The notes under the pieces were generated by a model. That model searched no databases, was not told where the DNA came from, and saw only the letters and a list, made by a program, of their open reading frames with translations. DNA of 64,000 bases from Candidatus Omnitrophota bacterium (GTDB lineage: Bacteria; Omnitrophota; Gorgyraeia; Zapsychrales; Aceulaceae), in assembly GCA_029564765.1 (NCBI GenBank), contig JAKQPK010000029.1:119-64118 (forward strand). The letters are read 5' to 3'. Shown piece by piece: positions 2 to 64,000 of this stretch; the stretch's first letter is position 1; the number at the start of each line of letters is the position of its first letter. Position numbers and translations under genes: made by a program.

Positions 2-3000
2 CCTACTTTCACAGCGCCTGAAACACCTTTTGTACCTACATTTGAAACACCTGTTATGCCTGCTGAACCGGTTATGCCGATGATGCCGGTCATTAACTTT
101 ACGATGCCGCTTTCCTTTAATAATACAAGCCCCGGATTAAGCGTGACATCACAAAATTCGAACCCTGAGAGCGGGTGGACTACTCCGTTATACGCCTTCG
201 TTTATCCAAATAATAGTCAACCCAATACTGACAGTGGCAAAGACAGTCATAATAAACCAAATCAAGAGGCCATTCCGCTCTCAGGGCCTCAATTACCAGC
301 TGTTCCTGTGTCTGAGATGCCAACTCCGACAAGTTCTGGCTCTAAACCTAAGGCACCTCAACATTTGGTAGTCGCGTTTGTCAATAATTCTCATGTAGAT
401 AAGGCAGCCATACTGCAAACCAGCGCGCCGGTAAGGACATTTGAAGGTGTAGAGTTTAAGGTTGCTGTTGCCAAAGACACCAGTACGCGCGGCTTGACGT
501 CTGGCTTGTCCCCAGGTATCAACATGCCGTCGTCCACTCCCGCAGTGGATCAGACGGTGAGAGGAATAGTTAGAGCGGGAACAATAGCTACGGATGCTGC
601 TTTGAGAGTTAGAGCTCTTTCTCTCTCTGCCGCAATAGAAGAAATAAGAGCAAAGGTTGTACAAAGCGTTAACTTGATCTCTGTAAAATCTGTCAAGTTA
701 GTGGTGCGTGGGGTGCGCGCTCTTCAGATCACCCTCAGCCAGGCCCAATTCGCCTTGTTGTTCGAATTAGGGGAAATTGGGACGTCTCGATTACCTTTGT
801 TTGTAGGTCGAGGAAAATCGAGTCAGGCCAAAGCTGCTCTCGTTAAGAGAGAAACAGGCTTGAATAGCTCTTTGAATTCAAGGTTTGCAGGTGTTTTGCA
901 AAACTTAGCTTCCTTGAAAGGTGTTATTAAGGAAAGCGGAATTCACTTCGATCTCCTTAGCGTTATTCGAGGAAAATCGGAGCTGATTTCTGGATTCAAA
1001 GCTTTTGCTCTTTGGATAGTAATGTCGCTACAGGAAGTGCTGACTGCAAATGAAGCTTATGCAAGCGAGTTTGTGTTCGCAGAGTCTAGCGTTTCCGGTG
1101 CTTTGGAAGGTGCGTCTGTCGCAAAGACTGCCAAGACAGCTAAGAATGTGTCCAGCAATGTCTATAGACAGGCCAGATCTAGCGTGTCCAGTGCTGTTGT
1201 GGGCCGCGAGACTGTCGCATCCTCTGTATTAGAGGCCGGGTTTGCTAGAAACGATGCCAATATGAGCTCTGTTGGCTTAAGTGACAGACGTTCTGTGATT
1301 GCAGAAATTGGCGTTTCCGGTGCTTTAGAGAGTGTGTCTGTCGCGAAGACTGTTGAAACAGCCGAAACTGTGGCTGTGAAGACTGTGCCGCAGACCAGAT
1401 CAAGCGAGACTGCGTTGGTTGCAGACCGTGTGATCGCGAAAGCCTTTGTATTAGAGAATGCCGGTGCCAAGAATGTGTCTACAGAGTCTGGGCTTAATAC
1501 AACAATTGTTTATGCTCCGTCTGCAGAATTTGGCGTTTCTGGTGTGTCGCAAGGTGTGTCTTCGCTCAAAGCTGCCTCAGCGGTTGTCAACGCCGGTGCT
1601 AGCTTTAAGGAAGAGACCGTAGAGAGTGTTTCCGCGGCGCTCGTTAGCCGTAGAGATGCTAACTCTGTATCAAACGACTACTCCAGAGGCGTACGATCTG
1701 TAAATGTAGGGTCTGTGAGAGAGCCTGCGTTTGCAGAAATTGGCGTTTCCAGTGCTGTAGAAGGTGTGTCTTCTGAAAACAGATTCAGAGCCCTTGCAGT
1801 CAAGGCACAGAATGCCTTAGAGAACGCAAGACGCTACGCTGAGTCTTTAAATAGGAAGACGACTGCATTACTAAACAAAGTTGTCAGAGCGCAAAGAGAA
1901 TTTGAGCCTCAGGCCGAACAAAGCAATATTGGTGCACGCTTGGTCGGAATCCTCATTCCGACATTTGTCATAGCGCAGATCATCACCCATTTGCTTCCGT
2001 CGACAGGTCTGGCCCAAAATACCCTCTATATCGCTGGCGCAACGGTTAGCTTGACCGACTTTATCGCTCTAACTGGCTTAATGTTAGGATTGGTTAGGAA
2101 TTTACCGTTCACATTTGTGTTCGGATTCTTCCACATATTCCAGAACTATGTGACAGACGACATAGGATTTTTAGGCACATTTGCCACCAATTATGGCAAC
2201 AACATCCTCTTCGATGTTCCTTATTATACCGCGATGCTGATCATGCCCATCGAGATCACTGCCTGGATCATGAAGATAGCCGAGAAAAAAGATTTTGTTG
2301 CGGCCAGCAAGATGACCCGAAAAGCGATCTTAAGGTTTGTTGCCGCTATTTTCGTTCTTCTTTCTATCCAAGAAGCTTTAAGCGATCAGGTCACTCCGCT
2401 TTATCAGGCCATTCGCGAAAACATGCAACCCGGCAGTGAATATAATGCCCGCGTTCTGACCCGCGATTGGTGGGATATCGCCGCTTACTTTGCTGGAGCT
2501 GTTTGGTTCTACGCCTTCATGGATTGGTTCAAGCGTAAAACATACAACATTTCTCATGTGGAGAAGATTGAAAAGATGTTCGCCTTAGAAGAAGATGACG
2601 CCATTAATCCTTCGAAAGGCAGCGAGAATAGAATGAAGAATTCAAGAACAAGCAACAAAGCAAACGGCACTTCCAGCGCGATCAGCAACAAGGCTTCTTC
2701 CAACAACGTTCAAGATAAATTAGACGATATTCAGCAGAGAATGGAAAATTTTCAGGACGCTATTGAGGCTACTGGCTTAACGGCGAAAGTCGCTCGCTTG
2801 CAATACGCTATCTCTCTGGTTGAAAAAAGAATTAACGCTGCGCTCAAAGAGCACATGTCTTTAGAAACATCTTTTGATGCTTTGTGGGCTCAGAAAAATA
2901 ATGTTTCAGGTAGAAAAGAACGCATTCGTTTTGTTCAGAAAGCCAGATCGATCCATCAACAAAAGATCGCGGCTGAAAAGAAATTGGCTGATTTGATCTC

Positions 3001-6000
3001 CAAGAAAGAAGACTTTGAAAATCAAGCGGCTGATCTTCAAGAACAGATCTTCGGCTTCGCCGAACAGCACGAAGATTTCGTCAGCGAAGAAGATCGCTCT
3101 TTTGCCTACACCGTTTCTGTCTACAACAACGAAGTTGCCGGCAAGTGGTATTTCACCCGCGTTGCCAAGATCAAGAGATTGGCTGAGATCATCCGCGTGG
3201 CTTACAACGAGCTTTTGGCCAAGAGAGCAGGTGAGTGGCAGCAAGCTGGCGTTGCGACAATTTATGCCGATAGATTGTTAGGCGATGTCGTCAGCCGCGA
3301 GACCATGAGCGATATTTACGCCGCGACCATTTTAAAGAACGCAGGAGACCTATCTAACCTTAGCGCAGAAGTCGCTCAATTTGAAACCGTTGTCGCCATG
3401 ACGCTTGCTTCTAAGAATGTTTCCCGCAAGGCCAAAAAGCATTTCTTGAAGAATATTGAAGACGCTCTTAATTCACGACTTGGACAGGAATCTTTCAAGC
3501 TTGCCCGCAATGTAGCGATCGTTGTGATCGCGGTCGTTGTTGGCGGTCTTCTCTTATCAACATCAGCCTTCGCGCAAACAGCAACTACCACCAACAATGT
3601 CAACCTTGACCAGGCAGACACTCTTCAAGGTCTGTCCTTCAGCCATTCCTTTATCGGCGATACCACAAATGGCTATTATGCTCCGGTTGGTAAGTGGACA
3701 TCAAGGAATCCTGGCCAGAATACTTTAAGCGGTATCGTGATGGACGCGCAAAGCATTGGATTGATCCCGCAAGGCAATGTCATGAAGTATGTTGAAATTG
3801 TTGCCAAAGACAATCACATCAGAAATCCCAATGTTATCCGCGTTGGACAGAAGATCTGGATCCGATACGCCTTAGCAACGCTTACATCCGTGGTCCCGGC
3901 GCCAAGCAACAGGGTGCCGGTGAACAACAACGTGCCGGTCGAACAAAAAGTTGAGCAAGTTGTCCCTTCTGTTGTCAACGACACGATCGGCGCGGCAACA
4001 ACAACATTCGTCGTCACCGCTGACACGCTTGCACGAGCTGCTCAACCCACAACAGAAACAGCCGTTGTTAAGGCTGATGTAACATCTGTTCAGGCCCAGG
4101 CACCGCCGGTAGGATATACAGAAACGCGTGTCTCCCTCCAGGGTTATCAGATGTTCGTCAATGATTCCTCTTACTTTATCCGCGGTGTTACAGTTGATGA
4201 AAACTTCTCCATTAGCGATATCCACTATGTTCAAGCCTTAGGCGCCAATACTGTTCGTACGTACCAAGCGTATCCTTCTATCTTTAACAAGGCTACCTTA
4301 GATAGCTTAGCCAAGAGCGGTATTCGCGTGATCGTTGGCATCCCTGCCGATGCCGGTAGCGGTGCTCGTGTCAATATTAAAGACGGTACCTACAAAGACT
4401 TTATCCGTCAATACGGCAGTCATCCAGCTGTTTTAATGATCGAGTTCGGCAACGAGTACAATTATCATCCGGAATGGTTTAACAACAATATTAACAACTG
4501 GTACAGCATGCTGGAAAAGGCTGCTTCTGAAACAAAGAAGATCAATTCTAAGATCATTGTCGCTACAGCCCACGGTGAAGTACCGACATTTGATGTTGTT
4601 CAAAAAGTTCCTTCTGTGGATGTCTGGGGCTTAAACGTTTACCGCGGCACAAGCTTCGGCACATTGTTCCAGCAATGGGTGAACTTGACAACGCAACTAA
4701 ACCGCCCGATGCCGATGTATCTCGCTGAATATGGCTTTGATTCCCACAGATATGCTGAAGAAGGTCAGGCCAATGGCATTATGAGCTTGGCTCAAGAGCT
4801 TGAGAACAATAAAGATAAGGTCATCGGCGGAACAGCGATGAGCTTTAAGGATAACCGTAACAAGGGAAGCGAAGACGAAAATAGTTATGGTTTCTATACG
4901 ATTGATTTTAATGATCAGGTCAGCGGCGCTAAACAGGTTGTAGAAATTATTTCCAAGATTTGGGGCGGCAAGGGAGAGGTAGCAGTATTAACACAGCGAC
5001 AATTATTCCGCCAAGAAACAGAAGCAAAGGCCAAAGCCGCTGAAATGAGTATCGCCCAGTTCGACAGCACTGCCGCTGTTCGTGATTCGCTGCGCATCGA
5101 TTCGTTACAGCTTGTTAGCAAAAAAGACCTTGTTGATGCTCAGATCAACGCGCTCGCCGGCAATCCTGACAGTGTACTAAACGACCTAAGGCAGGTCTAT
5201 AGATATACAGGCGCTAGCAAGAACTTTGCTTGGCCGCTGACATTAAGCGCTGGCTACAACTACAACACAGGAAGCTTGATCAGCGTACCGTTTACCAAGA
5301 ATGGATTAGGGACCGTAAACCTTAGCATTAACAACGCGTTTGGCAATAGTATTAACTTCCTACAGCAAACAACAGGTCTTATGAACACAACGCTAACCGG
5401 TACAGCTTTGGAGATCGGAGTCGGTTATGTGGCGTATCTGCATGCTGCCATGGAGCTTCGCAACAGCATCATTTCAGCCGCGCATCAAGGTGATGGCGCC
5501 CTCGTCACAGGCCGCCGTATCAATGGCGCTCCTGTCTTAAGACCGGTCTTTTCTAAAACACATTACATGTATGAAAACAAGATCATTACCGATACCAACG
5601 ATGTCAATTCTTTTGCAGAAAGAAAAGACCGCTCCCACGTTTCCTTTAGGCCAGGACAATTCCTCTTTAATGATGTGATGCGCAAATATGTTCCCGAAGT
5701 CATTACCGGCATTACAGATGAAGTTTTCGCGCTGCCATTTGACATGAGTAAAGATTTTAATCTAACCGATTCTGCAAAGACAATGAAGGCAAAAACAGGT
5801 GTTCAGACCTTCTTCAGCGGACTCGTCAATAAAACTTTAGGATATGACCCTGCGATCGTTCCTGCTTACGCAAAGCCAAAATACGACGTCTGGGCCGTGA
5901 TCGGAGATAAGGAGCATGCGTTCGTCTATGACAGCGCCTTAACTTGCATGAACCCGAACCTGTATTACGTTATCGCGCGTGATAGCATCTACGCTGTCGG

Positions 6001-9000
6001 CTATGTGATCGATCTTCAAGATCCTATGCATCCTGTCGTTAAGGAATACTTCCGCACCCCTCGTTTCATTGACAGCTTGGACCGCACATTCTTTATCGAT
6101 TACAACCTTTGGTTAGAGCCAAAACAAGCCTACATCGTTCCAACCGGTTGGATGATCCAGAATCTGATCGATGCTTACAGTGTTCGCTCCAGCAAGCAGG
6201 CGATCGTTGCCGCTCAAGATCCTCGCAGTGGAAAAATTCTTAACACATATCATTTATCCCAATCCCCGTCTATTGAGCATCGCCCTGTTTATATGAAAAA
6301 AGGAACCATTGCTTATCAAGATTCTATTGTGATGGCACCTGTCTTTACGGATACGATCTTAGGTTCTTGGCCGAACGGACAGCCTATTTATCCTAACGCG
6401 ATCTTTAGCGAAAGCTGTGCCGCGATGAGTTATTTCTTCTATCGTCAGTCCGATGCCGCCACATGGAATGACCTGCAAGGTGATGTGATCGACCTTGCAA
6501 CAGGCAAAGCCACGCCAGTCATGGCTCATGATACAGTGACCTTTAAAGTGTTGCCTGGCGACCTAACGATCAAGACATTTGCTCAGGACACCATTCTACC
6601 TGCTGGATTCAAGGTCGCTTATCTTAACAACGATACGGCCATGAGCATTTTTGTTGCCAAACCTGTTGATATGCCCCAACCGCCGCTGGCACGCTTATTC
6701 ATCTATCCGGCAGGGCAGCAATACATTTATGATTCCGTTGAATTACGCAATCTTAACACTTATACCTTGAATGGTGTGACATATAAGCAGTTTGAGAATG
6801 GCCAGATCGCGCTTGTTGATTACAGCCCTAACGCCCAACGCCTTGACCTGCGTCACGTCAACGCTACGGTTATTTATGAAGATGGCACGATCAAGAACTT
6901 CACTAACGACAGCATTCCTGTCAATGTAAGCAAGAAAGAGATCCCTGTGGCTAAAGGGGAAGTGCCTTTAAGCGTTTCCATTCAGAATATTCCTGGCGAT
7001 CGTTTCGCGCAGCTGTCAGAAGCTTTAAATGTTTTAGGCATTCCAGGCGCTGACAGCATTGTCAATGACTTAAGACAAAAAGCTTTGGCTTTCGAACAAA
7101 GCACAGCTGCCTTGAGCCGCGAAAGCAACAATCTTCGCAACGCCGCCTTACAACGCGAGCAAGCCTATCAAATTTCCCGCGGCCTCAACCTCTTTACTCA
7201 AGGTCTTTATAAGATTGTCCAGTCCCTGGAAGAGCACAATACTAAGATCGACAACAAAGAGCTCCTTTATAGCTGGTTACGTCAGATATCTTTTGACATG
7301 GTTGCCGGATCTTTAGATCCTCAAGCAGATGCCAACGCCTTTTACAATACGATCATTGAAAGAATGAAAGAAAGCACTCCAGAAGATGTCATGTTCAATT
7401 CACAAGATTCAGTTTTCTTAAACGGCAAGAGCCTTTTCGCTTATTGGAAAGATATGGTTTTGGGTGCTGGCAACACAAAGATCGCTGACATGGACTCTCT
7501 TAATATCAAGTCTTTAATCACAGTCGCTGACGCGAACTCCCAGCTTGCTATTTTGCAAGGTATTGGCCAGCCAGTAACAGATCCTTATGGTATGGCTGTG
7601 AACGTCCCTTACGCGATCACACAGCAAGATACCGCTCAAACAGCCGCCAATGATCTTAATGGCATGATTACTTTGAACAATTACGACAGCCTCTTTAATT
7701 ATGTTCCTGCTGACCTGGCGGCAACGCTGCAGGCATGGAATTATTATTTGAGCCTTTATAATGATTCTATCCCTGTCTGGGACAGTATCTGGAATGCAAG
7801 GCTTCAACAGGCAACAGTGGCAGGCGATGCGGCGTGGATCAGCCTTTGCAACAACGCGATCGCGAACATTAATACCTTGAAGACCACCTTAGGCAATCCT
7901 AATGCCTCTGTACCGAATACCATGTTCTGGGCTTTATATCAGCTTCAGCTTCATTATAATGGTAATATTGTGCCGTTCTCAACACTCGCCAATATCTTTG
8001 CCTCTATTAATCAGCAAATGGCTAACTACTGGACAGCTCAGATCAGCCTTCTCAATCAAGGCGCTGCTTTGATTATCCCTAATTATTTAGGCCTCAACGC
8101 TGTAATTATTCCTTATTTTGCGTCTTATCCGATCGTAGACGATCCCAGCACGCCTAACGTTAACGAGGCTAAGTTTGATACAGGGGAAGACGATCCTACA
8201 ACACCTGTTGATGAATCCAAGATCTTTACAATTTCATTCATCAACCAGTATCTTTATGTTGACGACAATACACCCAATGCCCAATCAGTGATGGGTTACT
8301 TAGCCAGAATGGAAGGCTTTGTGGCTTGGTTAGAAGACATCTTGGCAGAACACACAGATCTCTGGCAAACACATCCTCAATATCAGCAGAATATCCAGAA
8401 TTTGATCACCGCTATCAAGAACGTCTGGGATCCTGATGCCGCAAACTATAGCTATTGGAGAGTTCACGGCATTCCAGAATTAGCCAAAGATTCTATCTTG
8501 CAAGCTGTGAATCAGTATGCAGAAAGCGGCGCCCAGATCGTTACTCGTAAAACAGATGCCCGCAACGCTCAAGTGACCGCGTATACAGACCTTGCCAATG
8601 CGGCCTTAGGATTTAAAGATTTCTTAGAGTTCTTCTACGATGCTGATAGCGGCAAGACAGCTGAATATGTCAGCTTCGCCGAAAAGCAGATCAAGCGTGC
8701 TTTAAAGACCGTTCGCCATTACAACTCATTTGCCAATCATCCTTTACGCAATCTTCTGCAGGCAGGCCAAACCGTAAATAGCAGCAGCAAAGATCACGCA
8801 AGACAAAAGGCTCGCCAAAACGCTTCTTATCAGCAGGCGGAAGTTCGATATGATCAGATCTTTGCCGCGTACGACAGCGCCTTCAGTATTTTTGCCAACG
8901 CCAAGAACGCTCATGAACAATTTGTTCTAAGTACGATCGACAGCTTGGGCCGCAAGGACAGCATTCAAGCCAAAGCCTTGATCCAGAACTATTTTGCCAA

Positions 9001-60000: not shown

Positions 60001-63000
60001 CCAGAACGAATATTTTGACGAGATAAAGCGCAAAGATGGGACGATCGCGTATCGGCTCAAGCCTTATATTCGTTCAATGATCAGGATCCGACAGCGTAAT
60101 TTAAAGGACGCGCATCCCCGCGATGTCGATGTTGTTTTCTTTTTGCACACCGCTTATCTGATGGGGCCCTGGACGCTGAAGAGAACGATCAAGAATTTCA
60201 TTGACTCTGTACGTCAAGACAGCATTATTGTGGCTTCGTATGGGCACTGCTTCATCAATCCTTTTAGCTTTTTGATCAAAAAACATTTTATTGGCTATGA
60301 CCAGCGATATGTTTTCTCTTCTCGTAATAGCGTAAATCATTATATTTTCCGTTTCAAAGATCAGAAGCCAAGAGCAGCTTATCGCTTTGGATCCGCTGTT
60401 TATGGTCTAAAAAAAGCATCAAACACCTCCGCAGTTTCTTCCTGTCTTTGGCAGGAATTCAGACAGATCGATCATAAATTAAAGACGGAGGTTGAGGAGC
60501 TTTTATGGCTTCGATACGCTCGTCGACAGCTAGGCAAGGTCAGGACGTTTTATGGTCAGTATATTTTTGTTAGGCCGGGAGCTTGCGCAACATCGGAAGA
60601 GGCCGTCGGTATCCAAGATATTTTAGAGGATCTTCGAAACCAAGGTGATACTCAGGCCAGCTTAAGCAGTGCCCGCCACCCTCAAAAACGTGTGATCGCG
60701 GCAAACCTTGAAAAAGTCATGTCCTATCTTCAGACAAACGACACGCGATCGTTGGTCGAGACCATTGGGAACACCATTGATGTGGTTGACGCCAGAGGAA
60801 AAGAGGTTCGAAAGATCATCAAGAATATTTATGAGCGTCAATTGCCGGGGTTACGTGATCGCTTTATTTACATGAACGATCAATACGGATCTCGCATCAC
60901 GAACATCCTTGCGAAGCTTCATGACGGGGATTATCGGACAGCCTGGCAGTATGTTCAGGGATTTTTGAGCTCTCGAGCGCTCGAAGGGTCTTTTAGTGAA
61001 CCGGATTTGACAGGCATGCGTCAGCTGTTAGGCTACGTGGGGTCGCTGTTAAAGGATGGAAAAGATGTTGATGCCGCGAAAAGAAAGCTTGAAGATTTTC
61101 AGGCAGAGGTACAAATAGCACAAGCCGTTCATGATTTTATGTATAGGCTTAGGACCCTCTATGTTGTCCAGGCCTTAGAGCATAAGGGCCTTGACTGGCA
61201 GCAGGCATTTAATTGTGCTTATGATATTTATCTTAAGGAAAAAGGCCTTATTCGTGGATCGCCCAAAGAAGAGATCTTTCGCCTCGCTGTTTTTCGCCCC
61301 GCCTTTATTCCGTTTATGATTGATCATCCCCAAAAAAAGAACCAGCGCCTTATCAATCCTTTCTTCTTAGCTGTAACGAGTCTGATCCAGATCCAGCGAT
61401 CTTTGTCCTTTGATCTTATGTCACGGCATTTCCAGCGCCGCCATCCAGAAACAGCTTCATTATTATCGCAATTTGCCTCTGAGCATAAGCATGTTTTTAC
61501 GGACCTTAGCTTTAAGGATAGGCGTGCTCTTGTTGGGGCTTTGGCGCGTGATCATCAGTTGATCAAGCAGGATGTCCATATGTTCGTCACGATCGCCATT
61601 CCTCGCAAGAGGCATGAGCAGGATCAATATACGCTTATCTCCAAGATCGTTGCGGTAGCTGAAGAGCAGGAAGCGGAGCTGGCAAGGCGGTCTTCTGCGG
61701 ATTCTCAAAAAAAGGGGCAGGATGCCCAACATGAGCGCGTTGTTCGCATGGCCCAGATCATTGAGAACACCATTTTGGATCACTACATTGACGAATATGA
61801 CCGCGGTCTTTTGTGCGCCGTTGGATATATCAAGAATGACAAAGCTTTTCATAGCAACAAGAAAAGTTTTCAGGAGTTGCTCCCTGTGATCGCTGAGCTC
61901 TGTTGCTTGACGGATCCTCAGAAAGCGATCATCACGATCGCTTTCTTGCCGCAAGACCGCGAGGCGGATGATAGGACGGGGAAGGCAGTTTCCAGCGGGC
62001 TTTCTGATCGCTGCAAGGCGTTTCGTGCCCAGCTCGGATTTCTTCTTGTCGATATGATTAGCGTTATCTTTGCTGTCGGCGCTTTGCTTTCTTATGGGAT
62101 TATGAAAATTTTATTCTTTGGCATGAACACCACTGCAAGAACCATACGCTATGTTAATAGAAAAGGTTTTAAGAATGATTGCCACGTGATCTGGTCTTTT
62201 TGGCTGTTAATGGCGTCGATTGTGATCTTGCCCGATATGCTGGTCTCGTTGATCCTGCAGTCCTTAGGTCTTGCTTATTTTTCGATCGCTCTTGTCAGGC
62301 TTGAAGCCCGAGAAGACCAGAAAAAAGCTGAAGCCAAGCTTTTTGACAATCGTCTTTCACGTCTATGGAATGAGCGCATGCAGAAGGGTGGAGTGTTTAG
62401 ATACCGACTTTCATACCCGCAGTATCGGCGAGTTGGAGATTTTATTCTATTCCTGAATCAGGGAAGGGCACGGGCTGAAGAGGAAAAAAAGCGTTCTTTC
62501 GTTGATTGGAGCCCTGTGTTTGAACCGTTCGGCCGCACAGATAATTTTAACCGGATCTACAGAGATCATCCCCATCAGCGGTTATTCACTCAGAGGATCG
62601 GCTTTCAGCGTTTAGTTGTCAATGTTAACCATACACCTTATTTTTCATGCCATTTCCTTTTGATCCCTTCTCCCAAGAAAAATGTTGAGCAGTTCTTGAT
62701 CCTGTCGAACTTAAAAACTATTTATCGTGTTTTTCGTCTTAGCTATGCGGATAATCTATATTTTGGATTTAACAGCAGAGGCGCCTGGGCTTCTATTAAT
62801 CACCTTCATTTCCATGGCATATATTATCCTTTCGGCGTTTTACCCATAGACCAAGCTGTGAGACAAATTGTCGCAAAGGAACAAAGTGTCCGCATATCAA
62901 AAGTTTCCGACTATCCCTTGCGAGGGCTTATTTTTGAGAGTGCCAAGACCAGGCGGTTGATCAAGGCCACGTATTCATTTATTAGTTTTTTACAAAATCA

Positions 63001-64000
63001 CAACATTCCTCACGTCGTTCTTTTCGCAAGAGATCGGACGTATGTGTTTCCAGGCAATCGCAAGATGCGAACGCTCTCTCGATGCGGGATCGGATTTCTG
63101 GAGGCAGCAGGCGTTATGTACGCGGGGGATCAAGAAACTTTTAACACTTTAGCAGAAGTCGATGTTGCGCAAGAGCTTTCCCTTGGCTCCTTAAGTTCAC
63201 AGCAATTTGATCAATTGATCAAGTCTTGGAAGGCGTCTTCGCAGGTGCCAGCCTCTCCGCCTTTTATACCTTTTTTTGTTCATGGCGTGTTCAATGATTA
63301 CAACGCGCGACAACTTATCGCCTTGGGGCAAAAAGCGCGCCAGATCATCGCCTTATCCCGTAAAGACGCTCACCATCTTTTTGTGATCCTTTTTTCTGGG
63401 CCAACGGGAACATTAAAGACGACATTACTGAAGGCGATGAAAAGCAAGATCGAGGAAGCTGGATTGAGCGCCACTGTTGTTGATGAAGCGTCTTATTCTG
63501 ATCCACGCGCGGCTTTCACGATCGATGCGCTTGCCAAGGCTTTTTCATCACATAACATTCTTTTTGTGGAGACGGCAACATTTTTGCCATCTGGCGGCCA
63601 GAGCTTAGATCTTTTTATCCGATGTGAAGGAAGCTTGAAGGCGCGTCATGAAAGGATCACGCAGGGCAGCGGGTCATTTGAATACGCGCAACAACGAGTT
63701 TCTGTTGATGAGATACCAGCCAGCTCTTATCAGAGGTATCGAGCGGCCGATCTTGTGATCAATACGGATGTCGCTGATCAAGATTTTATCCAGGGTGGAT
63801 TTTTGCAAGCATTGTTCGATCAGGGTTTTGGTTTATCTTTACCCAAAGAGCTGCCAAGACCAAAGAACGAATGGAGAGAGTATTATTATTGCAGTATCAT
63901 CGGGCCGATCGCTTTCTGGGCTTTCTTAGGGCGCGCGGCCATACAAGCTTCTAAAAAAGTTTTTCAATATTTTGATCAAAGGCCAAGGCAGGAGAACATC
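2..64000 (+). CDS. Internal fragment of a giant multidomain protein gene (more than 21,333 codons; 5' and 3' ends outside the window)
   Basis: Frame +2 has no stop codon across the entire window (read through codon by codon, with triplet spot-checks at 9 positions). All plus-strand ORFs in the supplied track are in frames +3 or +1, none in +2, consistent with a frame that never terminates. Recognisable protein motifs at 4.4k, 24.2k, 27.3k, 39.8k, 43.0k, 44.6k, 54.3k, 56.7k and 59.8k all sit in this same frame. Confidence 0.9.
1020..1810 (+). repeat. Four tandem copies of a ~222-nt (74-aa) repeat; protein unit contains AE(I/F)GVSGALEG(A/V)SVAK
   Basis: The seed gcaga(a/g)(a/t)ttggcgtttc(c/t)ggtg recurs at 1079, 1301, 1523 and 1733 with periods of 222, 222 and 210 nt. 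The copies are in frame, so the protein carries the same repeat. Confidence 0.8.
1915..2560 (+). other. Cluster of ~5-6 predicted transmembrane helices
   Basis: Long hydrophobic stretches in the frame +2 translation (IGARLVGILIPTFVIAQIITHLL, LYIAGATVSLTDFIALTGLMLGLV, YYTAMLIMPIEITAWIM, AILRFVAAIFVLLSI, WWDIAAYFAGAVWFYAFMDWF). Confidence 0.55.
3512..3575 (+). other. Internal signal-peptide-like / signal-anchor segment (VAIVVIAVVVGGLLLSTSAFA|QT)
   Basis: A hydrophobic core followed by an AxA-type site (SAFA-QT), positioned immediately before the LysM-like and GH-A module. Confidence 0.45.
3700..3866 (+). other. LysM-like peptidoglycan-binding segment, followed by a Pro/Thr/Val-rich linker (3867-4110)
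   Basis: KYVEIVAKDNHIRNPNVIRVGQKIWI resembles the C-terminal half of the LysM consensus (N..I.pGQ.L.IP). The N-terminal half is only weakly similar. Confidence 0.3.
4125..4915 (+). other. Clan GH-A (beta/alpha)8 glycoside-hydrolase catalytic module, copy 1 (GH5/GH72-like)
   Basis: IEFGNEYNYHPEWF carries the acid/base Glu in an NEY motif at ~4451-4459. VDVWGLNVY is a beta-strand 6 motif. MYLAEYGFDS carries the nucleophile Glu in an EYG motif at ~4727. The spacing between the two glutamates is typical of the GH-A clan. Confidence 0.55.
9480..10200 (+). other. Beta-barrel-like segment with alternating hydrophobic pattern
   Basis: YGAVAGVALD...GFYNYIEGEQGAGIGFNWGNHLNVSVKTNFDKDHQLSANFGYKFDNGLGAGARV...WFGAGVSYPI has Gly/aromatic-rich amphipathic strands reminiscent of outer-membrane beta-barrels. 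Confidence 0.25.
14470..14560 (+). other. Single predicted transmembrane helix (NIGLVLFGYIFGTLALGKILAWIG) followed by an RRSRR stop-transfer-like motif
   Basis: A hydrophobic segment is followed by MRARRSRRQG in frame +2. Confidence 0.5.
15330..16090 (+). other. Polytopic membrane bundle (~7-9 predicted TM helices)
   Basis: Consecutive hydrophobic helices (ILAVVLGVSALSSLGLIFAPA, FAIIAGTVAIIGIAYGVMVWV, ATVVMVVTLLMKLGADFITW, GGPYILLAVVVSLFFLIFFLDIFACYYIV, FFFSTVSFLGIVSLIPGVNVVTGIAVAVSI, FLATGAAITLFVLVIDAAL). Confidence 0.6.
17830..19160 (+). other. Two further TM clusters (17830-18440 and 18700-19160) separated by a Lys/Glu-rich loop
   Basis: Hydrophobic helices LYLLTVVLFGMSLFMTF, LLGLILSQAITFTGFFQLVL, FQWVIIAVFTIAGGIFLW, IWSLFPIGMIVCALFAPFIL, ALAWLVVTTIGILTVVFAGGKVFIILAATLLLYTL, GTAIMITLTIVGFISIIFAAPYCMIVGL. 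Confidence 0.55.
19160..23020 (+). other. ~1,280-aa Glu/Lys/Gln/Ala-rich coiled-coil rod
   Basis: Heptad-like charged composition throughout (AEEKAAQEKADQEKAAQAEAARL, LEQQILGKKAAQETAKSRFFELK and similar) with no hydrophobic cores. Lys-rich ORFs in the track at 19215-19445 and 19566-19820 are frame-shifted readings of the same GAA/AAG-rich DNA. Confidence 0.7.
19396..19678 (+). repeat. 45-nt near-perfect direct repeat (gaaaaggcagatcaagaaaaagccgctcaagc(t/c)gaagccgcccgc) at 19396-19441 and 19634-19678
   Basis: Seen directly in the sequence: one mismatch over 45 nt, with extended similarity gccgcccgccttgct on both sides. Confidence 0.85.
23270..23740 (+). repeat. Cluster A of hairpin-forming nucleotide repeats, embedded in frame. 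Core hairpin 23327-23383: GGCCGCTGTCA ... (inner palindrome CTTCCTACCGTGGCAGGAAG) ... ACAGCGGCC, then a T-rich run
   Basis: The outer arms ggccgctgt / acagcggcc are reverse complements, and the inner cttcct...aggaag is a second palindrome. Degenerate copies (aacaggccg...ttccgtgg...) recur at ~23441 and ~23657. The track shows several overlapping ORFs in different frames here, i.e. a stop-poor low-complexity region. Confidence 0.6.
23737..23806 (+). other. Lipoprotein-signal-peptide-like segment (INILRTVSICFLAAAILTFAS-C-KKEE), internal to the ORF
   Basis: A positively charged n-region is followed by a hydrophobic core and the lipobox-like LTFASC, with Cys at 23804-23806. A possible TTG start sits at 23737, but no stop codon lies upstream. 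Confidence 0.45.
23810..24720 (+). other. Clan GH-A glycoside-hydrolase catalytic module, copy 2 (paralogue of 4125-4915)
   Basis: MYELGNEYNLHPEWFNGDINVWY has the NEY motif at 24173-24181. VDVWSLNVYQG and MYVGETGADSWN carry the nucleophile Glu at ~24440. Motif order and spacing match copy 1. Confidence 0.55.
24800..24900 (+). other. Single TM helix (LLLLTVVFWGGAIIFVIYHILKFIAS)
   Basis: A hydrophobic stretch in frame +2. Confidence 0.5.
25690..26190 (+). other. DUF218 (YdcF/SanA/ElyC-like) envelope-associated domain
   Basis: VEDLSTNSKENIIYS at ~25990-26030 matches the DUF218 signature (E..STNT.ENA). A Rossmann-like GGIGRETPF segment lies upstream. Confidence 0.4.
26372..26416 (+). other. Second internal lipoprotein-signal-like segment (FRFYFKLSLLVLSLGLFTA-C-SSRDQ)
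   Basis: A hydrophobic core plus lipobox-like LFTAC, with Cys at 26414-26416. Confidence 0.45.
27167..27700 (+). other. Five tandem TPR repeats (34 aa, 102 nt)
   Basis: AIRLNPNNA..YNLG..Y units begin at 27269, 27371, 27473, 27575 and 27677 with exact 102-nt spacing (AIRLNPNNAVAFYNLGVFYAKLNQSHKAIQAYEEA and following units). Confidence 0.85.
27770..27832 (+). other. Third internal lipoprotein-signal-like segment (LKKLALKGLFLAMGIGLFFS-C-KKDN)
   Basis: A KK n-region, a hydrophobic core and a Cys at 27830-27832 followed by KK, as in segment 1 (both have C-K-K). Confidence 0.45.
27900..28800 (+). other. PD40/TolB-like beta-propeller repeats
   Basis: Recurrent (W/S)xPDGxK(I/L)(A/I)F motifs: WAPCGDKAVFS, LVWTPDGRKLIFFS, LLSPDGQKIAIGG, plus YIYSVDGSKG. 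Confidence 0.5.
28890..29040 (+). other. Two adjacent predicted TM helices
   Basis: MNLLPTMPVFAPMMFVAGAVPGARFVLTALAVLTIITILGKWFAK. Confidence 0.5.
29170..29420 (+). repeat. Cluster B of the hairpin repeat. Core hairpin 29184-29236: GGCCGCTGCCC ... CTTCCTTCCGTGGCAGGAA ... GGCAGCGGCT, then a T-rich run; a second hairpin CCGTTTCC...GGAAACGG at ~29306-29340
   Basis: Homologous to cluster A (aacaggccgctg..aatcttcct.ccgtggcagga...). There are compensatory changes in both stem arms (tgtca/tgaca becomes tgccc/ggcag). A 1-nt indel means the 5' arm is translated in a different frame than in copy A. Confidence 0.6.
31388..31486 (+). other. Sec-type signal-peptide-like segment starting at an in-frame ATG (MASPLASVISSSLRRFVLTTIVLIAMSVTSLFA|QA)
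   Basis: ATG at 31388 in frame +2. The n-region has RR, the hydrophobic core is ~15 aa, and the cleavage site is AxA-like. There is no upstream stop codon and no obvious GGAGG Shine-Dalgarno sequence. Confidence 0.5.
31490..33250 (+). other. Alpha-helical region with ~4 degenerate ~100-aa repeats
   Basis: Repeat cores EQDKEVLRILKLVENAKNKRDLENIVIG (~31690), EQEKEVLRFYRAMIDADQVDLLDSLKYG (~32380), DEEVKRVEKKIDSAARSYDLENIFIG (~32730) and DRDKEILTIRSLVDNANTINDINIV (~33080). Confidence 0.45.
33500..33740 (+). other. Possible RelE/ParE/YoeB-fold (toxin-like) segment
   Basis: YGYKLGPSQSLFYVVFDSQKILVAGVIYNEFTHY resembles the C-terminal beta-strands of RelE/YoeB-family toxins (R(I/L)(V/I)Y.V..(I/V).(I/V)...HY). 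Weak. Confidence 0.2.
34240..34720 (+). repeat. Cluster C of the hairpin repeat. Perfect 11-bp stem GGCCGCTGTCA(34266-34276)...TGACAGCGGCC(34341-34351) followed by TTTTTT; also the direct repeats tggaa(g/a)gtaaaagatttttcttt at 34496 and 34687
   Basis: The 5' and 3' arms are identical to cluster A, but the loop is larger (64 nt) and contains accatggcggtgagg, similar to accgtggcaggaag of cluster A. The T-tract immediately 3' gives an intrinsic-terminator-like architecture. A degenerate copy cagcaggccaaatgtcagg sits at ~34636. Confidence 0.6.
37540..37960 (+). other. RelA/SpoT-type nucleotidyltransferase ((p)ppGpp-synthetase / small-alarmone-synthetase-like) domain
   Basis: EEHRVKGIYASSQKIGRKGKK...DLEDLLGIHLIV matches RVKs..Si..Ki.RK...DiaGlRvI. 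DNYNAHHFGVRI and RFVILEIKVFSKSEYDAFKYGNAAVWIW correspond to the G..NGYxSLH and EiQiRT..mh.WAe...H..YK regions. Confidence 0.45.
38650..38830 (+). other. ACT-like small-molecule-binding domain
   Basis: SLRIEIAQDRIGFMRDILEHISAFGAVIAQ resembles the ACT beta-alpha-beta core (L.v...DRpG.L..i...l...g.nI). Its position after a RelA/SpoT-like domain mirrors RelA C-terminal organisation. Confidence 0.35.
39230..40900 (+). other. GT35 alpha-glucan phosphorylase-like module
   Basis: LGAGGLGFLTGE is the GGLG.L motif. VMTTHTPEAAALPYW matches T.HT..PEA. INGVAQEHAEVTK matches NGVa.lH..lvk. IVNGSDPWLW corresponds to the TNGitpRRW region. REACGTSDQRAALTGG aligns to the PLP site EASGTsNMKf.lNG, but with Arg in place of the Schiff-base Lys. 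Confidence 0.55.
42700..44250 (+). other. GH13 (alpha-amylase superfamily) catalytic (beta/alpha)8 module
   Basis: The four conserved regions are in canonical order: I GILVDVIPHLN (~42990), II GVAGIRGDVFHNYG (~43225, nucleophile Asp), III FIFIGENYS (~43447, acid/base Glu), IV ALETHDYY (~43630). A beta-sandwich-like segment lies upstream at 42280-42700. Confidence 0.45.
44580..46000 (+). other. GT5 glycogen/starch-synthase-like module
   Basis: DISPEVAPFSKGGGLANVPG matches the GlgA N-terminal K(T)GGL motif (SE.APF.KTGGLgDV). STWEPGGISPMEALAFM matches the C-terminal S.fEPcGl.q.yAm motif (~45920-45960). Confidence 0.55.
46500..46840 (+). other. HD-domain (metal-dependent phosphohydrolase) module
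   Basis: RSRHDFRPEAVIRAALVFHDIGVGE is the H....HD(I)G motif at ~46555-46570. A downstream His sits in FLIWYHSA (~46797). Confidence 0.4.
54245..55080 (+). other. HAD-superfamily hydrolase-like module
   Basis: Motif I IAIFDWDGTL (DxDGT, ~54266-54280). Motif II YIVTGSDKRG. Motif IV VLVVGDGWAELQAG (~54990-55015). Confidence 0.5.
55640..55830 (+). other. Type I phosphoribosyltransferase-like PRPP-binding segment
   Basis: KKVIIIDDVIHSGGVLKDL (~55727-55766) resembles the PRPP motif hhhhDD.h.tGgT. Similar but weaker motifs occur at ~53330 (VVFIDEALAGGATV) and ~58650 (CLILDDETAYGSTL). Confidence 0.35.
56650..56900 (+). other. Minimal nucleotidyltransferase (Pol-beta superfamily) fold
   Basis: IAFVGSLARGEVTEASDIDFDII (~56692-56752) matches G[SG]x9-13Dx[DE]. 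Confidence 0.5.
59740..60330 (+). other. CheR-type SAM-dependent methyltransferase-like module
   Basis: ARIHSAGASDFKEAISIAIMLHE matches the CheR motif RIWSAgCStGEEpYSiAm.l. DVDVVFFLHTAYLMG matches DvIfCRNvlIYF. Confidence 0.4.
62030..62290 (+). other. Cluster of ~3-4 predicted TM helices
   Basis: LGFLLVDMISVIFAVGALLSYGIMKILFFG, CHVIWSFWLLMASIVILPDMLVSLILQSLGLAYFSIALV. Confidence 0.5.
63370..63500 (+). other. Degenerate P-loop NTPase-like segment
   Basis: LFVILFSGPTGTLKTTLL is Walker-A-like, with Leu replacing the conserved Gly before Lys. SATVVDEASYSD is Walker-B-like (hhhhDE). Confidence 0.25.

What the first reader, a model, noticed from the sequence alone, without database searches (positions are those of the whole stretch)
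2..64000. The entire 64-kb window is one stop-free reading frame: an internal fragment of a giant gene longer than 64 kb
Frame +2 contains 21,333 consecutive sense codons and not one TAA, TAG or TGA, while all other frames show ordinary stop density (the longest other-frame ORFs are 60-163 aa). Both ends of the frame leave the window, so the gene and its protein (more than 21,300 aa) are larger than what is visible. Genes of this size are extremely rare in prokaryotes. The content also matches what has been reported for bacterial giant genes, with most examples coming from Candidatus Omnitrophota: numerous TM helix clusters, carbohydrate-active modules (2x GH-A, GH13, GT35, GT5), binding and adhesion repeats (LysM-like, TPR, PD40, a long beta-rich region, coiled coil) and embedded enzyme modules. 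Moderate GC content and standard-code behaviour are compatible with that group, but the taxonomic assignment is only an inference.
Basis: partly seen in the sequence, partly recalled or inferred. Interest (0 to 1): 0.95.

Follow-up and report, generated by a model that had tools for sequence, protein, structure and literature searches.

The report
Fragment of a giant Omnitrophota gene
The whole 64-kb window is one uninterrupted piece of a single enormous bacterial gene (over 21,000 amino acids, both ends missing) from an Omnitrophota bacterium; genes like this are now documented in that phylum, but this one carries a complete fungal/plant-type beta-glucan synthase.

Summary
Observation confirmed. 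Frame +2 has 0 stops in 21,333 codons; the other five frames have 738-1,581.

- Five protein fragments from a shattered NCBI Omnitrophota MAG (GCA_035417865.1) are 100% identical to 4,221 aa of the frame.
- The domain content matches the published "Archaeovorin" / "multi-enzyme" class of Omnitrophota giant proteins.
- That phylum is now reported to hold thousands of proteins of 10,000 aa or more, up to 147,155 aa. This is therefore a new member of a known kind.

Added value:
- aa 4220-6373 is a complete FKS/GT48-type glucan synthase unit. It has both TM bundles, and 13 of 16 FKS1 active-site residues are identical.
- The unit lies between two GH-A barrels that most resemble beta-1,3-glucan enzymes, about 2,500 aa upstream and 1,600 aa downstream.
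- It recurs in 42 species' genomes, and in 35 of them the frame is open across the whole fetched stretch.
- I found no report of this unit in the papers searched.

The "GT35" module lacks the PLP lysine. The true gene ends could not be reached. About two-thirds of the protein has no recognisable domain.

The parts
2..64000 (+). Single stop-free reading frame of 21,333 codons, open at both window edges. It is an internal fragment of a giant gene.
   Evidence: 0 stops against 738-1,581 in the other frames. (codon-position composition). (domain matches in this frame along the whole window).
1071..1950 (+). Four diverged tandem copies of a 222-nt (74-aa) repeat with no recognised fold. The end coordinate is approximate.
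   Evidence: families D3 and D5: copies at 1071, 1293, 1515 and 1725, 72-87% identical.
4019..5041 (+). GH-A (beta/alpha)8 barrel no. 1 (aa ~1340-1680). Invariant Glu1485 (LGNEW) and Glu1576 (EFG) are the presumed acid/base and nucleophile.
   Evidence: GH158, E 2e-6. (relatives carry PF02836, PF03198 or GH17 labels). (invariant glutamates). (model pTM 0.70; best folds GH158, GH72 Gas2/Gel4, GH157).
12659..19120 (+). Complete FKS/GT48-type glucan synthase unit (aa 4220-6373). It comprises a bacterial-specific N-terminal block (aa 4220-4830), TM bundle 1 (aa ~4833-5362), a cytoplasmic GT domain (aa ~5407-5960) and TM bundle 2 (aa ~5944-6373).
   Evidence: PF02364, 250 bits against a cut-off of 37. 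(FKS1/GSC2, E 2e-37 and 7e-54). (catalytic residues). (model pTM 0.77; Fks2/Fks1 E 4e-30 over 976-1,142 columns; BcsA only E 2e-9). (block colinear in many relatives).
19349..22651 (+). Charged E/K/Q/R/A-rich, low-complexity, coiled-coil-like stretch of about 1,100 aa (aa ~6450-7550).
   Evidence: EKQRA fraction 0.51-0.58, low entropy. (AT skew up to 0.31). (weak TolA-like match).
23240..23273 (+). Perfect 15-bp hairpin inside the ORF. Function unknown.
   Evidence: (minimum free energy -26.9 kcal/mol, z -5.2).
23753..23806 (+). Internal lipoprotein-signal-like segment 1 (RTVSICFLAAAILTFASC), immediately before GH-A no. 2.
   Evidence: 3 motifs observed against 0.025-0.15 expected.
23849..24724 (+). 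GH-A barrel no. 2 (aa ~7950-8241), a paralogue of no. 1.
   Evidence: GH158, E 2e-8. (30-46% identical to aa 1427-1658). (weak Glyco_hydro_2_C match).
25691..26329 (+). DUF218 / YdcF-like domain (aa 8564-8776).
   Evidence: PF02698, E 5e-15. (YdcF 3ca8, E 5e-13).
26360..26416 (+). Internal lipoprotein-signal-like segment 2 (RFYFKLSLLVLSLGLFTAC).
27209..27721 (+). TPR array of 4-5 repeats. It is the only clear tandem domain repeat in the window.
   Evidence: TPR_1, E 1.5e-40. (102-nt period).
27773..27832 (+). Internal lipoprotein-signal-like segment 3 (KKLALKGLFLAMGIGLFFSC).
28412..28885 (+). PD40 / WD40-like beta-propeller region (aa ~9471-9628). Only weakly supported.
   Evidence: PD40, 23.1 bits against a cut-off of 20.9. 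(weak WD40 match).
29714..30208 (+). MbnB/TglH/ChrH (DUF692)-like module (aa ~9905-10069).
   Evidence: PF05114, E 6e-7, 29.4 bits against a cut-off of 25.
35549..35586 (+). Intrinsic-terminator-like hairpin with a T-run inside the ORF. Function unknown.
   Evidence: (minimum free energy -20.1 kcal/mol, z -3.2).
37310..38071 (+). RelA/SpoT-synthetase-like module (aa ~12437-12690). Its catalytic motif has diverged (EIKVFS in place of EIQIRT).
   Evidence: below the Pfam cut-off. (GTP pyrophosphokinases, E 2e-5)..
40454..40888 (+). C-terminal GT-B half resembling alpha-glucan phosphorylase (aa ~13485-13629). The PLP lysine is replaced by Arg.
   Evidence: PF00343, below cut-off. (9l6i, E 1e-9; EASGTSGEK aligned to EACGTSDQR).
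43199..44101 (+). GH13 (alpha-amylase family)-like module. By-eye candidates for the catalytic regions are GIRGD, IGEN and THD.
   Evidence: PF00128, 28.6 bits against a cut-off of 22, partial match..
44597..46273 (+). GT5 starch/glycogen-synthase-like module plus its GT1 C-terminal half (aa 14866-15424). The KGGGL and WEPGG motifs are present.
   Evidence: PF08323, E 5e-30; PF00534, E 2e-14. (GBSS / glycogen synthase)..
54251..55036 (+). HAD-superfamily hydrolase module with an FDWDGT motif I.
   Evidence: PF00702, E 8e-13..
55667..55840 (+). Type I phosphoribosyltransferase PRPP-binding motif (IIIDDVIHSGG).
   Evidence: PF00156..
56654..56800 (+). Pol-beta-type nucleotidyltransferase motif (GS...DID).
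   Evidence: PF01909, 26 bits against a cut-off of 21..
57935..58345 (+). N-terminal-domain-like module of PRPP synthetase.
   Evidence: PF13793, E 8e-15..
59633..60232 (+). CheR-type SAM methyltransferase-like module. Motif I has diverged.
   Evidence: PF01739, E 3e-10..
62033..62257 (+). Pair of strongly hydrophobic TM-like segments near the window's 3' end.
63305..63493 (+). P-loop NTPase (GPTGTLKT), weakly T2SSE-like.
   Evidence: PF00437, below cut-off.

Best explanation
The window is an internal 64-kb piece of one real protein-coding gene from an Omnitrophota bacterium, the same population as NCBI MAG GCA_035417865.1. The gene belongs to the described class of Omnitrophota giant multi-enzyme ('Archaeovorin-type') proteins.

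Shown:
- one uninterrupted, compositionally uniform coding frame
- about 18 unrelated modules in that frame
- at least 23 strongly hydrophobic segments in clusters

Inferred layout:
- The first ~10,400 aa have low charge, are S/T/N/G-rich and contain many TM segments. They weave through the inner membrane and face the envelope.
- This half is built around a complete FKS/GT48-type glucan synthase (aa 4220-6373).
- Two GH-A barrels lie on either side of the synthase, about 2,500 aa upstream and 1,600 aa downstream.
- After the synthase come a ~1,100-aa coiled-coil-like spacer and then DUF218, TPR and PD40-like modules. These are interspersed with three TM or lipobox-like segments, which precede GH-A no. 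2, the TPR array and the PD40-like region.
- The last ~10,900 aa are more highly charged and nearly free of TM segments. They sit in the cytoplasm and carry enzymes that need cytoplasmic substrates: GT5 glycogen-synthase-like, a second GT-B, GH13, HAD, PRTase, PRPP-synthetase-like, nucleotidyltransferase, RelA-like and CheR-like modules.

Inferred mechanism: the polypeptide tethers in cis a membrane-embedded machine. That machine polymerises a glucan from a nucleotide sugar on the cytoplasmic face, extrudes it through its own TM channel, trims or transglycosylates it outside with the GH-A barrels, and couples this to cytoplasmic sugar and nucleotide handling.

The cellular purpose (an envelope or attachment matrix towards a host or prey cell) is speculation.
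For: Open frame and coding signature.

Low repetition and uniform composition.

Independent assembly:
- Five fragments from one MAG are 100% identical and cover 4,221 aa. Each fills its whole short contig.
- One of these contigs is 100% identical at the DNA level.

Conservation of the phenomenon:
- 42 species' genomes carry the FKS-like unit (39 Omnitrophota or Planctomycetes-labelled MAGs and 3 Endomicrobiaceae).
- In 35 of them the frame is open across the whole fetched stretch.
- 11 of those stretches are 20 kb or longer, including one on a 3.36-Mb chromosome.
- A colinear block of about 2,000 aa is shared at 25-69% identity.

Domains.

FKS unit:
- PF02364 scores 250 bits.
- A profile of the block matches FKS1 at E 7e-54.
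- FKS1 residues E851, K1082, N1085, D1102/N1104, E1155, H1195, N1220/E1221/D1222, K1246, R1248 and K1261 are all present in the window. The residue list comes from PMC10499315 and PMC12715860.
- The model aligns to Fks1/Fks2 over 976-1,142 columns.

GH-A barrels: two invariant glutamates; best folds are GH158, GH72 and GH157.

Motifs intact in GT5, HAD, PRTase and NTase, and by-eye candidates in GH13.

Two-compartment composition.

The published class has the same module set, including GT5, GT1, HAD, methyltransferase and TPR.
Against: - Neither end of the gene was reached, so the total length, N-terminal targeting signal and genomic neighbours are unknown.
- No reads were available, so long-range contiguity rests on frame continuity and composition alone.
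- Topology comes from crude hydropathy. Simple counting of TM segments does not give a consistent in/out assignment for every module.
- About two-thirds of the protein has no recognisable domain.
- The GT35-like module lacks its PLP lysine, and the RelA-like and CheR-like motifs have diverged. Some modules may therefore be non-catalytic.
- The glucan product and linkage are inferred only from homology. Specificity within clan GH-A cannot be read from the fold.
- SecA-DEAD, HEAT, NUDIX and C39 domains, which are typical of published Archaeovorins, were not found in this window.
- Two stable plus-strand hairpins lie inside the ORF, one of them terminator-like.
Confidence: 0.85

Rival explanations
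1. Polyprotein. The ORF is real, but it is cut after translation, or read from internal starts, into many separate proteins. In that case the working units are ordinary-sized enzymes and lipoproteins rather than one 21,000+ aa chain.
For: Three internal lipoprotein-signal-like segments sit in front of the GH-A no. 2, TPR and PD40-like modules. Three were observed against 0.15 expected, and none of 300 local shuffles exceeded 1. West-Roberts et al. raise cleavage by C39 or S8 peptidase domains in other giants. Two stable hairpins lie inside the ORF.
Against: No peptidase domain was found in the window. No Met lies within 15 aa upstream of the three lipobox-like segments. Promoter-like sites are at chance level. 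Ribosomes that start internally would still have to read to the distant stop. Lipobox processing is only known for N-terminal signals (own knowledge).
Confidence: 0.25
2. Prey or host cell-wall attack and adhesion effector, as proposed for Archaeovorins. On this reading the GH modules degrade a target cell's polysaccharide and the GT modules only recycle the products. The protein would not build a polymer of its own.
For: This is the published hypothesis for the class. The window has two GH-A barrels with intact catalytic glutamates, TPR and PD40 binding repeats and a long coiled-coil spacer.
Against: The best-conserved part, in the window and across 42 genomes, is a processive synthase with an export channel and an intact active site. 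It is not a hydrolase. The GH-A folds resemble beta-1,3-glucan enzymes, not murein or pseudomurein hydrolases. No lytic transglycosylase, dockerin or adhesin repeat was found.
Confidence: 0.3
3. Assembly artefact. The long frame would result from chimeric joins or collapsed repeats in a metagenome assembly.
For: The source contig could not be found, and no reads were available. The only independent assembly of this organism is shattered into contigs of 1.5-3.9 kb.
Against: A random join keeps the strand and frame in only 1 case in 6, and here 64 kb stays open. There are almost no repeats that could collapse. Composition and codon usage are uniform. The five independent fragments are identical and open from end to end. 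Relatives on contigs of 100 kb to 3.4 Mb show the same long open frames.
Confidence: 0.03
4. Open but not a normal gene. Either the organism uses a non-standard genetic code, or the frame is a decaying or untranslated relic.
For: None specific. No expression data exist for this organism.
Against: All three stop codons are absent from the frame and common in the other frames, so no reassignment is needed. A relic would acquire stops at roughly 5.7% per codon. Catalytic residues are conserved across relatives that are only 29-57% identical, which indicates purifying selection. According to West-Roberts et al., Kizina et al. 2022 reported expression of a giant protein in Vampirococcus sp. LiM, also referred to as V. 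archaeovorus LiM. Their own de novo re-analysis aligned only 381 short peptide fragments.
Confidence: 0.02

Closest known systems
Archaeovorin-type giant proteins of Omnitrophota (West-Roberts et al. 2023, bioRxiv 10.1101/2023.11.21.568195). Type example: the giant protein of Velamenicoccus archaeovorus.
   Same: Same phylum. A single ORF of tens of kilobases. Many TM segments. A mosaic of GT5 and GT1 glycosyltransferases, glycoside hydrolases, a methyltransferase and TPR repeats. No dockerin or TSP3 repeats. Long unannotated stretches.
   Different: No SecA-DEAD, HEAT, NUDIX or C39/S8 peptidase domain was found in the 21,333 aa visible; these may lie outside the window. The window contains a complete GT48/FKS unit, which the paper's main text does not mention. 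Length is known only as a lower bound (over 21,333 aa), which is below that paper's 'giant' threshold of 30,000 aa.
Class 1 'multi-enzyme metabolic cluster' long proteins of Omnitrophota (Nielsen & Lui 2026, bioRxiv 10.64898/2026.06.07.730766).
   Same: Many distinct Pfam families, none of them dominant. Shares the families PF08323, PF00534, HAD and methyltransferase from that paper's modules 1 and 2. Membrane-anchored. Little nucleotide-level tandem repetition. Sequence-unique: very few homologues outside the conserved unit.
   Different: PF02364 (glucan synthase) appears neither in that paper's text nor in its one held supplement. This window is not from that data set as far as can be told.
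Fungal Fks1/Fks2 and plant callose synthases (CAZy GT48).
   Same: For aa ~5100-6300: the Pfam family, GT-A domain inserted between two TM bundles, DxN and ED motifs, and the basic residues of the active site and interface helix. The predicted fold superposes on cryo-EM Fks1/Fks2.
   Different: Only 24-33% identical to eukaryotic members, against 33-60% among the bacterial ones. FKS1 D1080, K1172 and E1173 are replaced by Q, G and D. No match to the N-terminal accessory domain; a bacterial-specific ~600-aa block sits there instead. The unit is embedded inside a far larger polypeptide. No Rho1-type regulator is expected in bacteria (own knowledge).
GH158, GH72 and GH157 beta-1,3-glucan-active clan GH-A enzymes.
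   Same: (beta/alpha)8 barrel with invariant Glu after strand 4 (NE motif) and at strand 7. They are the best sequence and fold matches.
   Different: About 20% identity. GH2 glucuronidases score almost as well, so the family and substrate are not settled.

Membership tests
Omnitrophota large/giant genes (West-Roberts 2023: 'large' is 10,000 aa or more, 'giant' is 30,000 aa or more) | One uninterrupted ORF encoding at least 10,000 aa | tested here: met
   21,333 sense codons with no stop.
Omnitrophota large/giant genes | Length of at least 30,000 aa ('giant' in the strict sense) | not testable with these tools
   Both ends leave the window. The source contig is absent from the GTDB representatives and the JGI metagenomes, and no protein overlaps either edge.
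Omnitrophota large/giant genes | Encoded in an Omnitrophota genome | tested here: met
   Five proteins of MAG GCA_035417865.1 ('Candidatus Omnitrophota bacterium') are 100% identical, and one contig is 100% identical at DNA level. Relatives are mostly Omnitrophota.
Omnitrophota large/giant genes | Numerous transmembrane regions | tested here: met
   23 segments at Kyte-Doolittle score 1.8 or above, and 34 at 1.55 or above, in clusters. This is hydropathy only; no dedicated predictor was available.
Omnitrophota large/giant genes | Divergent SecA DEAD helicase domain (present in 'most') | tested here: not met
   No SecA family hit in any Pfam scan of the window. It could lie outside the window or be too divergent to detect.
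Archaeovorin type | Glycosyltransferases (GT5, GT1) and glycoside hydrolases on one chain, with no dockerin or TSP3 repeats | tested here: met
   PF08323, PF00534 and PF02364, two GH-A barrels and GH13 are present. No dockerin or TSP3 hit.
Archaeovorin type | Methyltransferase or SAM-dependent methylase module | tested here: inconclusive
   CheR domain at E 3e-10, but the SAM-binding motif I has diverged (GASDFKE).
Archaeovorin type | HEAT repeats, NUDIX hydrolase, and C39 or S8 peptidase | tested here: not met
   None detected in the window. C39 is reported near N-termini, which are not in the window.
Class 1 multi-enzyme long protein (Nielsen & Lui 2026) | Many distinct Pfam families tile the chain, and none dominates by copy number | tested here: met
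   About 11 distinct non-TPR Pfam families reach their gathering cut-off. Only TPR is repeated, 4-5 times.
GT48 / FKS 1,3-beta-glucan synthase (embedded unit) | Match to PF02364 above the curated cut-off | tested here: met
   250-252 bits against a cut-off of 37.2.
GT48 / FKS 1,3-beta-glucan synthase | Active-site residues shown by mutagenesis in Fks1 (E851, K1082, D1102/N1104, E1155, H1195, N1220/E1221/D1222, K1246/R1248, K1261) | tested here: met
   All are present in the window (E5507, K5744, D5764/N5766, E5797, H5837, N5858-E5859-D5860, K5884/R5886, K5899). D1080, K1172 and E1173 are substituted.
GT48 / FKS 1,3-beta-glucan synthase | GT domain inserted between two TM bundles that form a cellulose-synthase-like translocation core | tested here: met
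   Hydrophobic clusters at aa 4833-5362 and 5944-6373. The model (pTM 0.77) aligns to Fks2 and Fks1 over 976-1,142 columns, E 4e-30.
GT48 / FKS 1,3-beta-glucan synthase | Makes beta-1,3-glucan from UDP-glucose | not testable with these tools
   Needs biochemistry.
Clan GH-A glycoside hydrolase (GH158-like) | (beta/alpha)8 barrel with catalytic Glu after strand 4 and at strand 7 | tested here: met
   E1485 and E1576 are invariant in 22 sequences. They fall at the ends of model strands 178-183 and 273-278. The fold matches GH-A enzymes.
Clan GH-A glycoside hydrolase (GH158-like) | Assignment to GH158 specifically, with beta-1,3-glucanase activity | tested here: inconclusive
   GH158 is the best hit by sequence (E 2e-6 and 2e-8) and by fold (E 1e-15). 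Identity is only 21%, and GH72, GH157 and GH2 score close behind.
   The window has EACGTSDQR aligned to EASGTSGEK of 9l6i. Which residue of that motif is the lysine is from my own knowledge. The Pfam match is below cut-off and covers about 70 of 713 profile positions.
GT5 starch/glycogen synthase | PF08323 above cut-off, plus the KxGGL motif and the Glu of the C-terminal GT-B half | tested here: met
   105 bits against a cut-off of 22.7. KGGGL at aa 14878 and WEPGG at about aa 15311.

The most novel reading that the evidence does not exclude
A complete, catalytically intact FKS/GT48-type glucan synthase is the conserved core of a family of very long Omnitrophota and Endomicrobiaceae proteins. 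GT48 is a family I know only from eukaryotes, where it is the target of echinocandin antifungals and the maker of plant callose. In this window the synthase is fused in one chain with GH-A glucan-remodelling barrels and with cytoplasmic sugar and nucleotide enzymes. On this reading these giants would be polysaccharide-building envelope machines rather than, or as well as, prey-wall degraders. GT48 would also have a deep prokaryotic lineage that bears on the origin of the eukaryotic enzymes. I found no report of this in the papers searched.
Probability: 0.35. Interest if true: 0.7.

Novelty: new member of a known kind. Interest (0 to 1): 0.4.

Why it matters
The giant ORF itself adds one more partial example to a phenomenon already catalogued in Omnitrophota: up to 85,804 aa in 2023 and up to 147,155 aa in 2026.

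What matters more is that this example gives the class a biochemically tractable handle. What these proteins do is still open. Here the best-conserved ~2,000 aa are a recognisable processive glucan synthase whose tested catalytic residues are almost all in place, and two glucanase- or transglycosylase-like barrels lie on either side of it.

This can be tested directly by:
- a UDP-glucose polymerase assay on the excised unit
- mutants of the ED motif
- aniline-blue or laminarinase tests on enrichment cultures

The result would shift the working hypothesis from 'prey-wall digestion' towards 'building an envelope or attachment glucan'.

The 42 bacterial GT48 loci also provide prokaryotic sequences for asking where fungal FKS and plant callose synthases came from.

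The shattered MAG, where one gene is spread over at least five contigs of 1.5-3.9 kb, is a concrete case of how short-read bins hide such genes.

Tried and rejected
1. A homology search with the first 5,000 aa timed out.
2. Locating or extending the source contig failed. The first 5,000 aa were searched against the GTDB representatives and the JGI metagenomes, and the last 5,000 aa against the JGI metagenomes; none gave a confirmed match. Two of the six peptide patterns used lie inside the region covered by MAG contig L001, so that MAG is not in genome contigs.
3. A chimeric query made of the first 350 and last 350 aa, meant to catch fragments overlapping the window edges, gave no hit.
That block remains structurally uncharacterised.
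5. NCBIfam on the first 10,000 aa added nothing beyond TPR-like and a weak TolA-like match.
6. Strict regular expressions for catalytic motifs mostly failed on these divergent modules. They were replaced by inspection of local sequence and HMMER alignments.
7. tRNA and Rfam scans found nothing.
8. A viral-contig scan with the GT48 profile found no relative. This gives no support for a viral or mobile origin.
9. I first read L006, L017 and L012 as stand-alone FKS genes of 2,460-6,022 aa. I rejected this because their upstream ORFs are open to the edge of the fetched stretch. What remains true is that in 6 of 42 loci the frame ends 1-8 kb after the GT domain, and that L006 and L017 are interrupted by one in-frame TAG and one frameshift respectively.
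10. Internal lipobox-like motifs are not a general feature of giant ORFs: relatives have 2 in 185,239 aa against 0.5 expected.

Full report
**Observation.** A six-frame scan shows that frame +2 (nt 2-64000) has 21,333 sense codons and no stop. The other five frames carry 738-1,581 stops, and their longest stop-free runs are 110-215 codons. From base composition, the chance of no stop over this length is about 10^-546. GC by codon position is 52/37/45%, with G-rich first positions. Protein-domain matches in this frame are spread from aa ~1267 (a weak match) to aa 21,164. The other two plus-strand frames are never open for more than 133 codons, so a change of frame between modules is excluded.

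**Is it an artefact?**
- The window contains almost no repeats that could have collapsed. There is a 4x102-nt TPR array, four diverged 222-nt repeats and a short 15-nt array.
- Codon usage and tetranucleotide composition are uniform along the window.
- Five proteins annotated in one NCBI MAG (GCA_035417865.1, 'Candidatus Omnitrophota bacterium', locus tags PLO93_) are 100% identical to aa 346-1484, 1641-2132, 3533-4478, 4481-5409 and 5407-6121. P0002 differs only at its annotated start residue.
- Each of these fragments fills its whole 1.5-3.9-kb contig.
- One such contig is 100% identical to nt 510-4453 and open in the same frame.

A separate assembly of the same population therefore reproduces 20% of the frame, shattered into short pieces. 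The window comes from a more contiguous assembly that I could not locate. No tRNA or Rfam family lies in the window.

**What the frame encodes, in order along the protein:**
- four 74-aa repeats
- a GH-A TIM barrel (aa ~1340-1680)
- about 2,500 aa with no recognisable domain
- a complete FKS/GT48-type glucan synthase unit (aa 4220-6373)
- a ~1,100-aa charged, coiled-coil-like stretch (aa ~6450-7550)
- a second, paralogous GH-A barrel (aa ~7950-8241)
- DUF218/YdcF-like, a TPR array, a weak PD40/WD40-like region and an MbnB/DUF692-like module
- a nearly TM-free ~9,000 aa holding RelA/SpoT-like, a phosphorylase-like GT-B half, GH13-like, GT5+GT1 (glycogen-synthase-like), HAD, PRTase, a nucleotidyltransferase, a PRPP-synthetase N-domain and CheR-like modules
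- two TM-like segments and a P-loop at the window's 3' end

. Roughly two-thirds of the residues match nothing.

The N-terminal ~10,400 aa have low charge and are S/T/N/G-rich. The C-terminal ~10,900 aa are more highly charged. Together with the cofactor needs of the C-terminal enzymes, this suggests an envelope-facing half and a cytoplasmic half. That layout is an inference.

**Are the modules live enzymes?**
- *GT48 domain.* Thirteen of the 16 Fks1 active-site residues compiled from PMC10499315 and PMC12715860 are identical in the window, including the DxN and ED motifs. Most of them were shown by mutagenesis to matter in yeast Fks1. A model of aa 5100-6299 (pTM 0.77) aligns to cryo-EM Fks2 and Fks1 over 976-1,142 columns (E 4e-30). 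Bacterial cellulose synthase scores far lower (E 2e-9).
- *GH-A barrels.* They keep two invariant glutamates, at the end of strand 4 and at strand 7. They resemble GH158, GH72 (Gas2/Gel4) and GH157 most closely, all of which act on beta-1,3-glucan, but GH2 enzymes are close behind.
- *Other modules with hallmark motifs.* GT5 (KGGGL, WEPGG), HAD (FDWDGT), PRTase and the nucleotidyltransferase keep them. GH13 has by-eye candidates for its catalytic regions (GIRGD, IGEN, THD).
The RelA-like and CheR-like motifs have diverged.

**Relatives.**
- The nearest relatives of the GT48 module are partial proteins on short Omnitrophota contigs (33-60% identity). Plant, oomycete and other eukaryotic GT48 enzymes follow at about 24-33%.
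- A profile scan of the GTDB species representatives returned 42 loci. They are Omnitrophota (some labelled Planctomycetes) plus three Endomicrobiaceae.
- In 35 of the 42 loci, the frame carrying the GT48 domain is open across the entire fetched stretch. Eleven of these stretches are 20 kb or longer, and one lies on a 3.36-Mb chromosome.
- A colinear block equivalent to window aa ~4220-6170 is shared at 25-69% identity. Outside it, the neighbouring modules differ. For example, a RelA-like module lies about 4 kb downstream in L007 and L019, and a GH-A barrel lies upstream in L027.
- In six loci the frame ends 1-8 kb after the GT domain, whereas here it continues for at least 45 kb.
- The bacterial-specific N-terminal block has only 46 matches among 1.84 billion cluster representatives.

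Long open frames around this unit are therefore a conserved biological feature, and the giants look like mosaics assembled around shared units.

**Comparison with what is known.**
- West-Roberts et al. (2023) described Omnitrophota ORFs up to 85,804 aa. They defined 'Archaeovorins' as carrying GTs (especially GT5 and GT1), GHs, methyltransferases, TPR and many TM helices, and they proposed roles in prey adhesion and wall digestion.
- Nielsen & Lui (2026) report 3,650 proteins of 10,000 aa or more and a maximum of 147,155 aa. Their 'multi-enzyme metabolic' class includes PF08323, PF00534, HAD and methyltransferase families. They note that fragmented MAGs hide such genes.
- The window fits these descriptions. 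It is a new member of a known kind, not a new phenomenon.
- SecA-DEAD, HEAT, NUDIX and C39 domains were not seen in the part visible here.
- Neither paper's main text, nor the one supplement held, mentions a GT48 or glucan-synthase module. Literature searches that paired GT48 with Omnitrophota or with prokaryotes found nothing.

**Most likely mechanism (largely inferred).**
- One multi-pass inner-membrane polypeptide holds in cis a glucan synthase with its own export channel.
- It also holds outward-facing GH-A barrels that trim or transglycosylate the product.
- A long helical spacer and binding repeats follow.
- A cytoplasmic tail of sugar and nucleotide enzymes could supply or buffer the substrates.

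This differs in emphasis from the published 'wall digestion' idea. Both remain possible, and I rate the degradative-effector reading at about 0.3. A polyprotein reading cannot be excluded. Three lipoprotein-signal-like segments lie inside the ORF, directly before GH-A no. 2, the TPR array and the PD40-like region (3 observed against 0.15 expected). They could be fossil N-termini of genes that were fused in frame, or working processing sites.

**Limits.**
- The gene's ends, total length and neighbours are unknown.
- There are no reads and no expression data.
- Topology rests on hydropathy alone, and simple parity counting does not resolve every module.
- The product of the synthase is inferred from homology.

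**Verdict.** The finding is real and correctly interpreted, but its headline (sheer size) is no longer novel for this phylum. Its most interesting content is the embedded, conserved and apparently functional FKS-type synthase unit.

Noticed in passing
window 23753-23806, 26360-26416, 27773-27832: Three lipoprotein-signal-like segments lie inside the ORF, each with a basic n-region, a hydrophobic core and a lipobox ending in Cys. They sit directly before GH-A no. 2, the TPR array and the PD40-like region. Three were observed against 0.025-0.15 expected. They could be fossil gene starts from in-frame fusions or internal processing sites.
   Followed up: partly
window 23240-23273: A perfect 15-bp stem with a 4-nt loop lies inside the coding frame (minimum free energy -26.9 kcal/mol, z -5.2). 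By a rough estimate of mine, about 4e-4 such perfect stems are expected in 64 kb. Its T-tail is poor and its function is unknown.
   Followed up: partly
window 35549-35586: An intrinsic-terminator-like hairpin lies on the coding strand in the middle of the ORF (11-bp stem with 7 GC pairs, followed by CTGTTTTTTT; -20.1 kcal/mol, z -3.2). Terminator-like sites are also in excess across 20-40 kb (45 against 22 expected). Part of that excess comes from the A-rich coil region.
   Followed up: partly
window 40454-40888: The phosphorylase-like GT-B module has Arg where alpha-glucan phosphorylases have the PLP-binding Lys (EACGTSDQR against EASGTSGEK). It is probably not a PLP enzyme.
   Followed up: yes
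L012, L018, L025 (Endomicrobiaceae); P0035 (labelled Njordarchaeales): The bacterial FKS-like unit also occurs in Elusimicrobiota (Endomicrobiaceae) genomes within frames of more than 5,700 aa. One partial hit is binned as an Asgard archaeon next to radical-SAM domains, which may be a misbinning.
   Followed up: no
L006 7301-7303; L017 9044-9069: In two relatives the long frame upstream of the GT48 domain is broken. L006, a single-cell genome, has a single in-frame TAG. L017 (Ca. Zapsychrus exili) has a frameshift with a 25-nt overlap. These could be sequencing errors or real gene splits.
   Followed up: partly
window 1071-1950: Four diverged 222-nt (74-aa) tandem repeats lie near the window start and match no known family.
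   Followed up: no
window 29714-30208: An MbnB/TglH/ChrH (DUF692)-like module is embedded in the giant protein. This family is known for modifying RiPP precursor peptides. No partner or precursor was looked for.
   Followed up: no
window 1-10000 versus 10001-64000: GC skew is mostly negative or near zero from about 2 to 10 kb, and positive throughout from about 10 kb onwards. Cumulative skew rises steadily after 10 kb. This was not examined further.
   Followed up: no
window 63305-63493: A P-loop NTPase (GPTGTLKT) with a weak T2SSE-like match sits 500 nt from the 3' edge. It may begin a secretion-ATPase-like module that continues outside the window.
   Followed up: no
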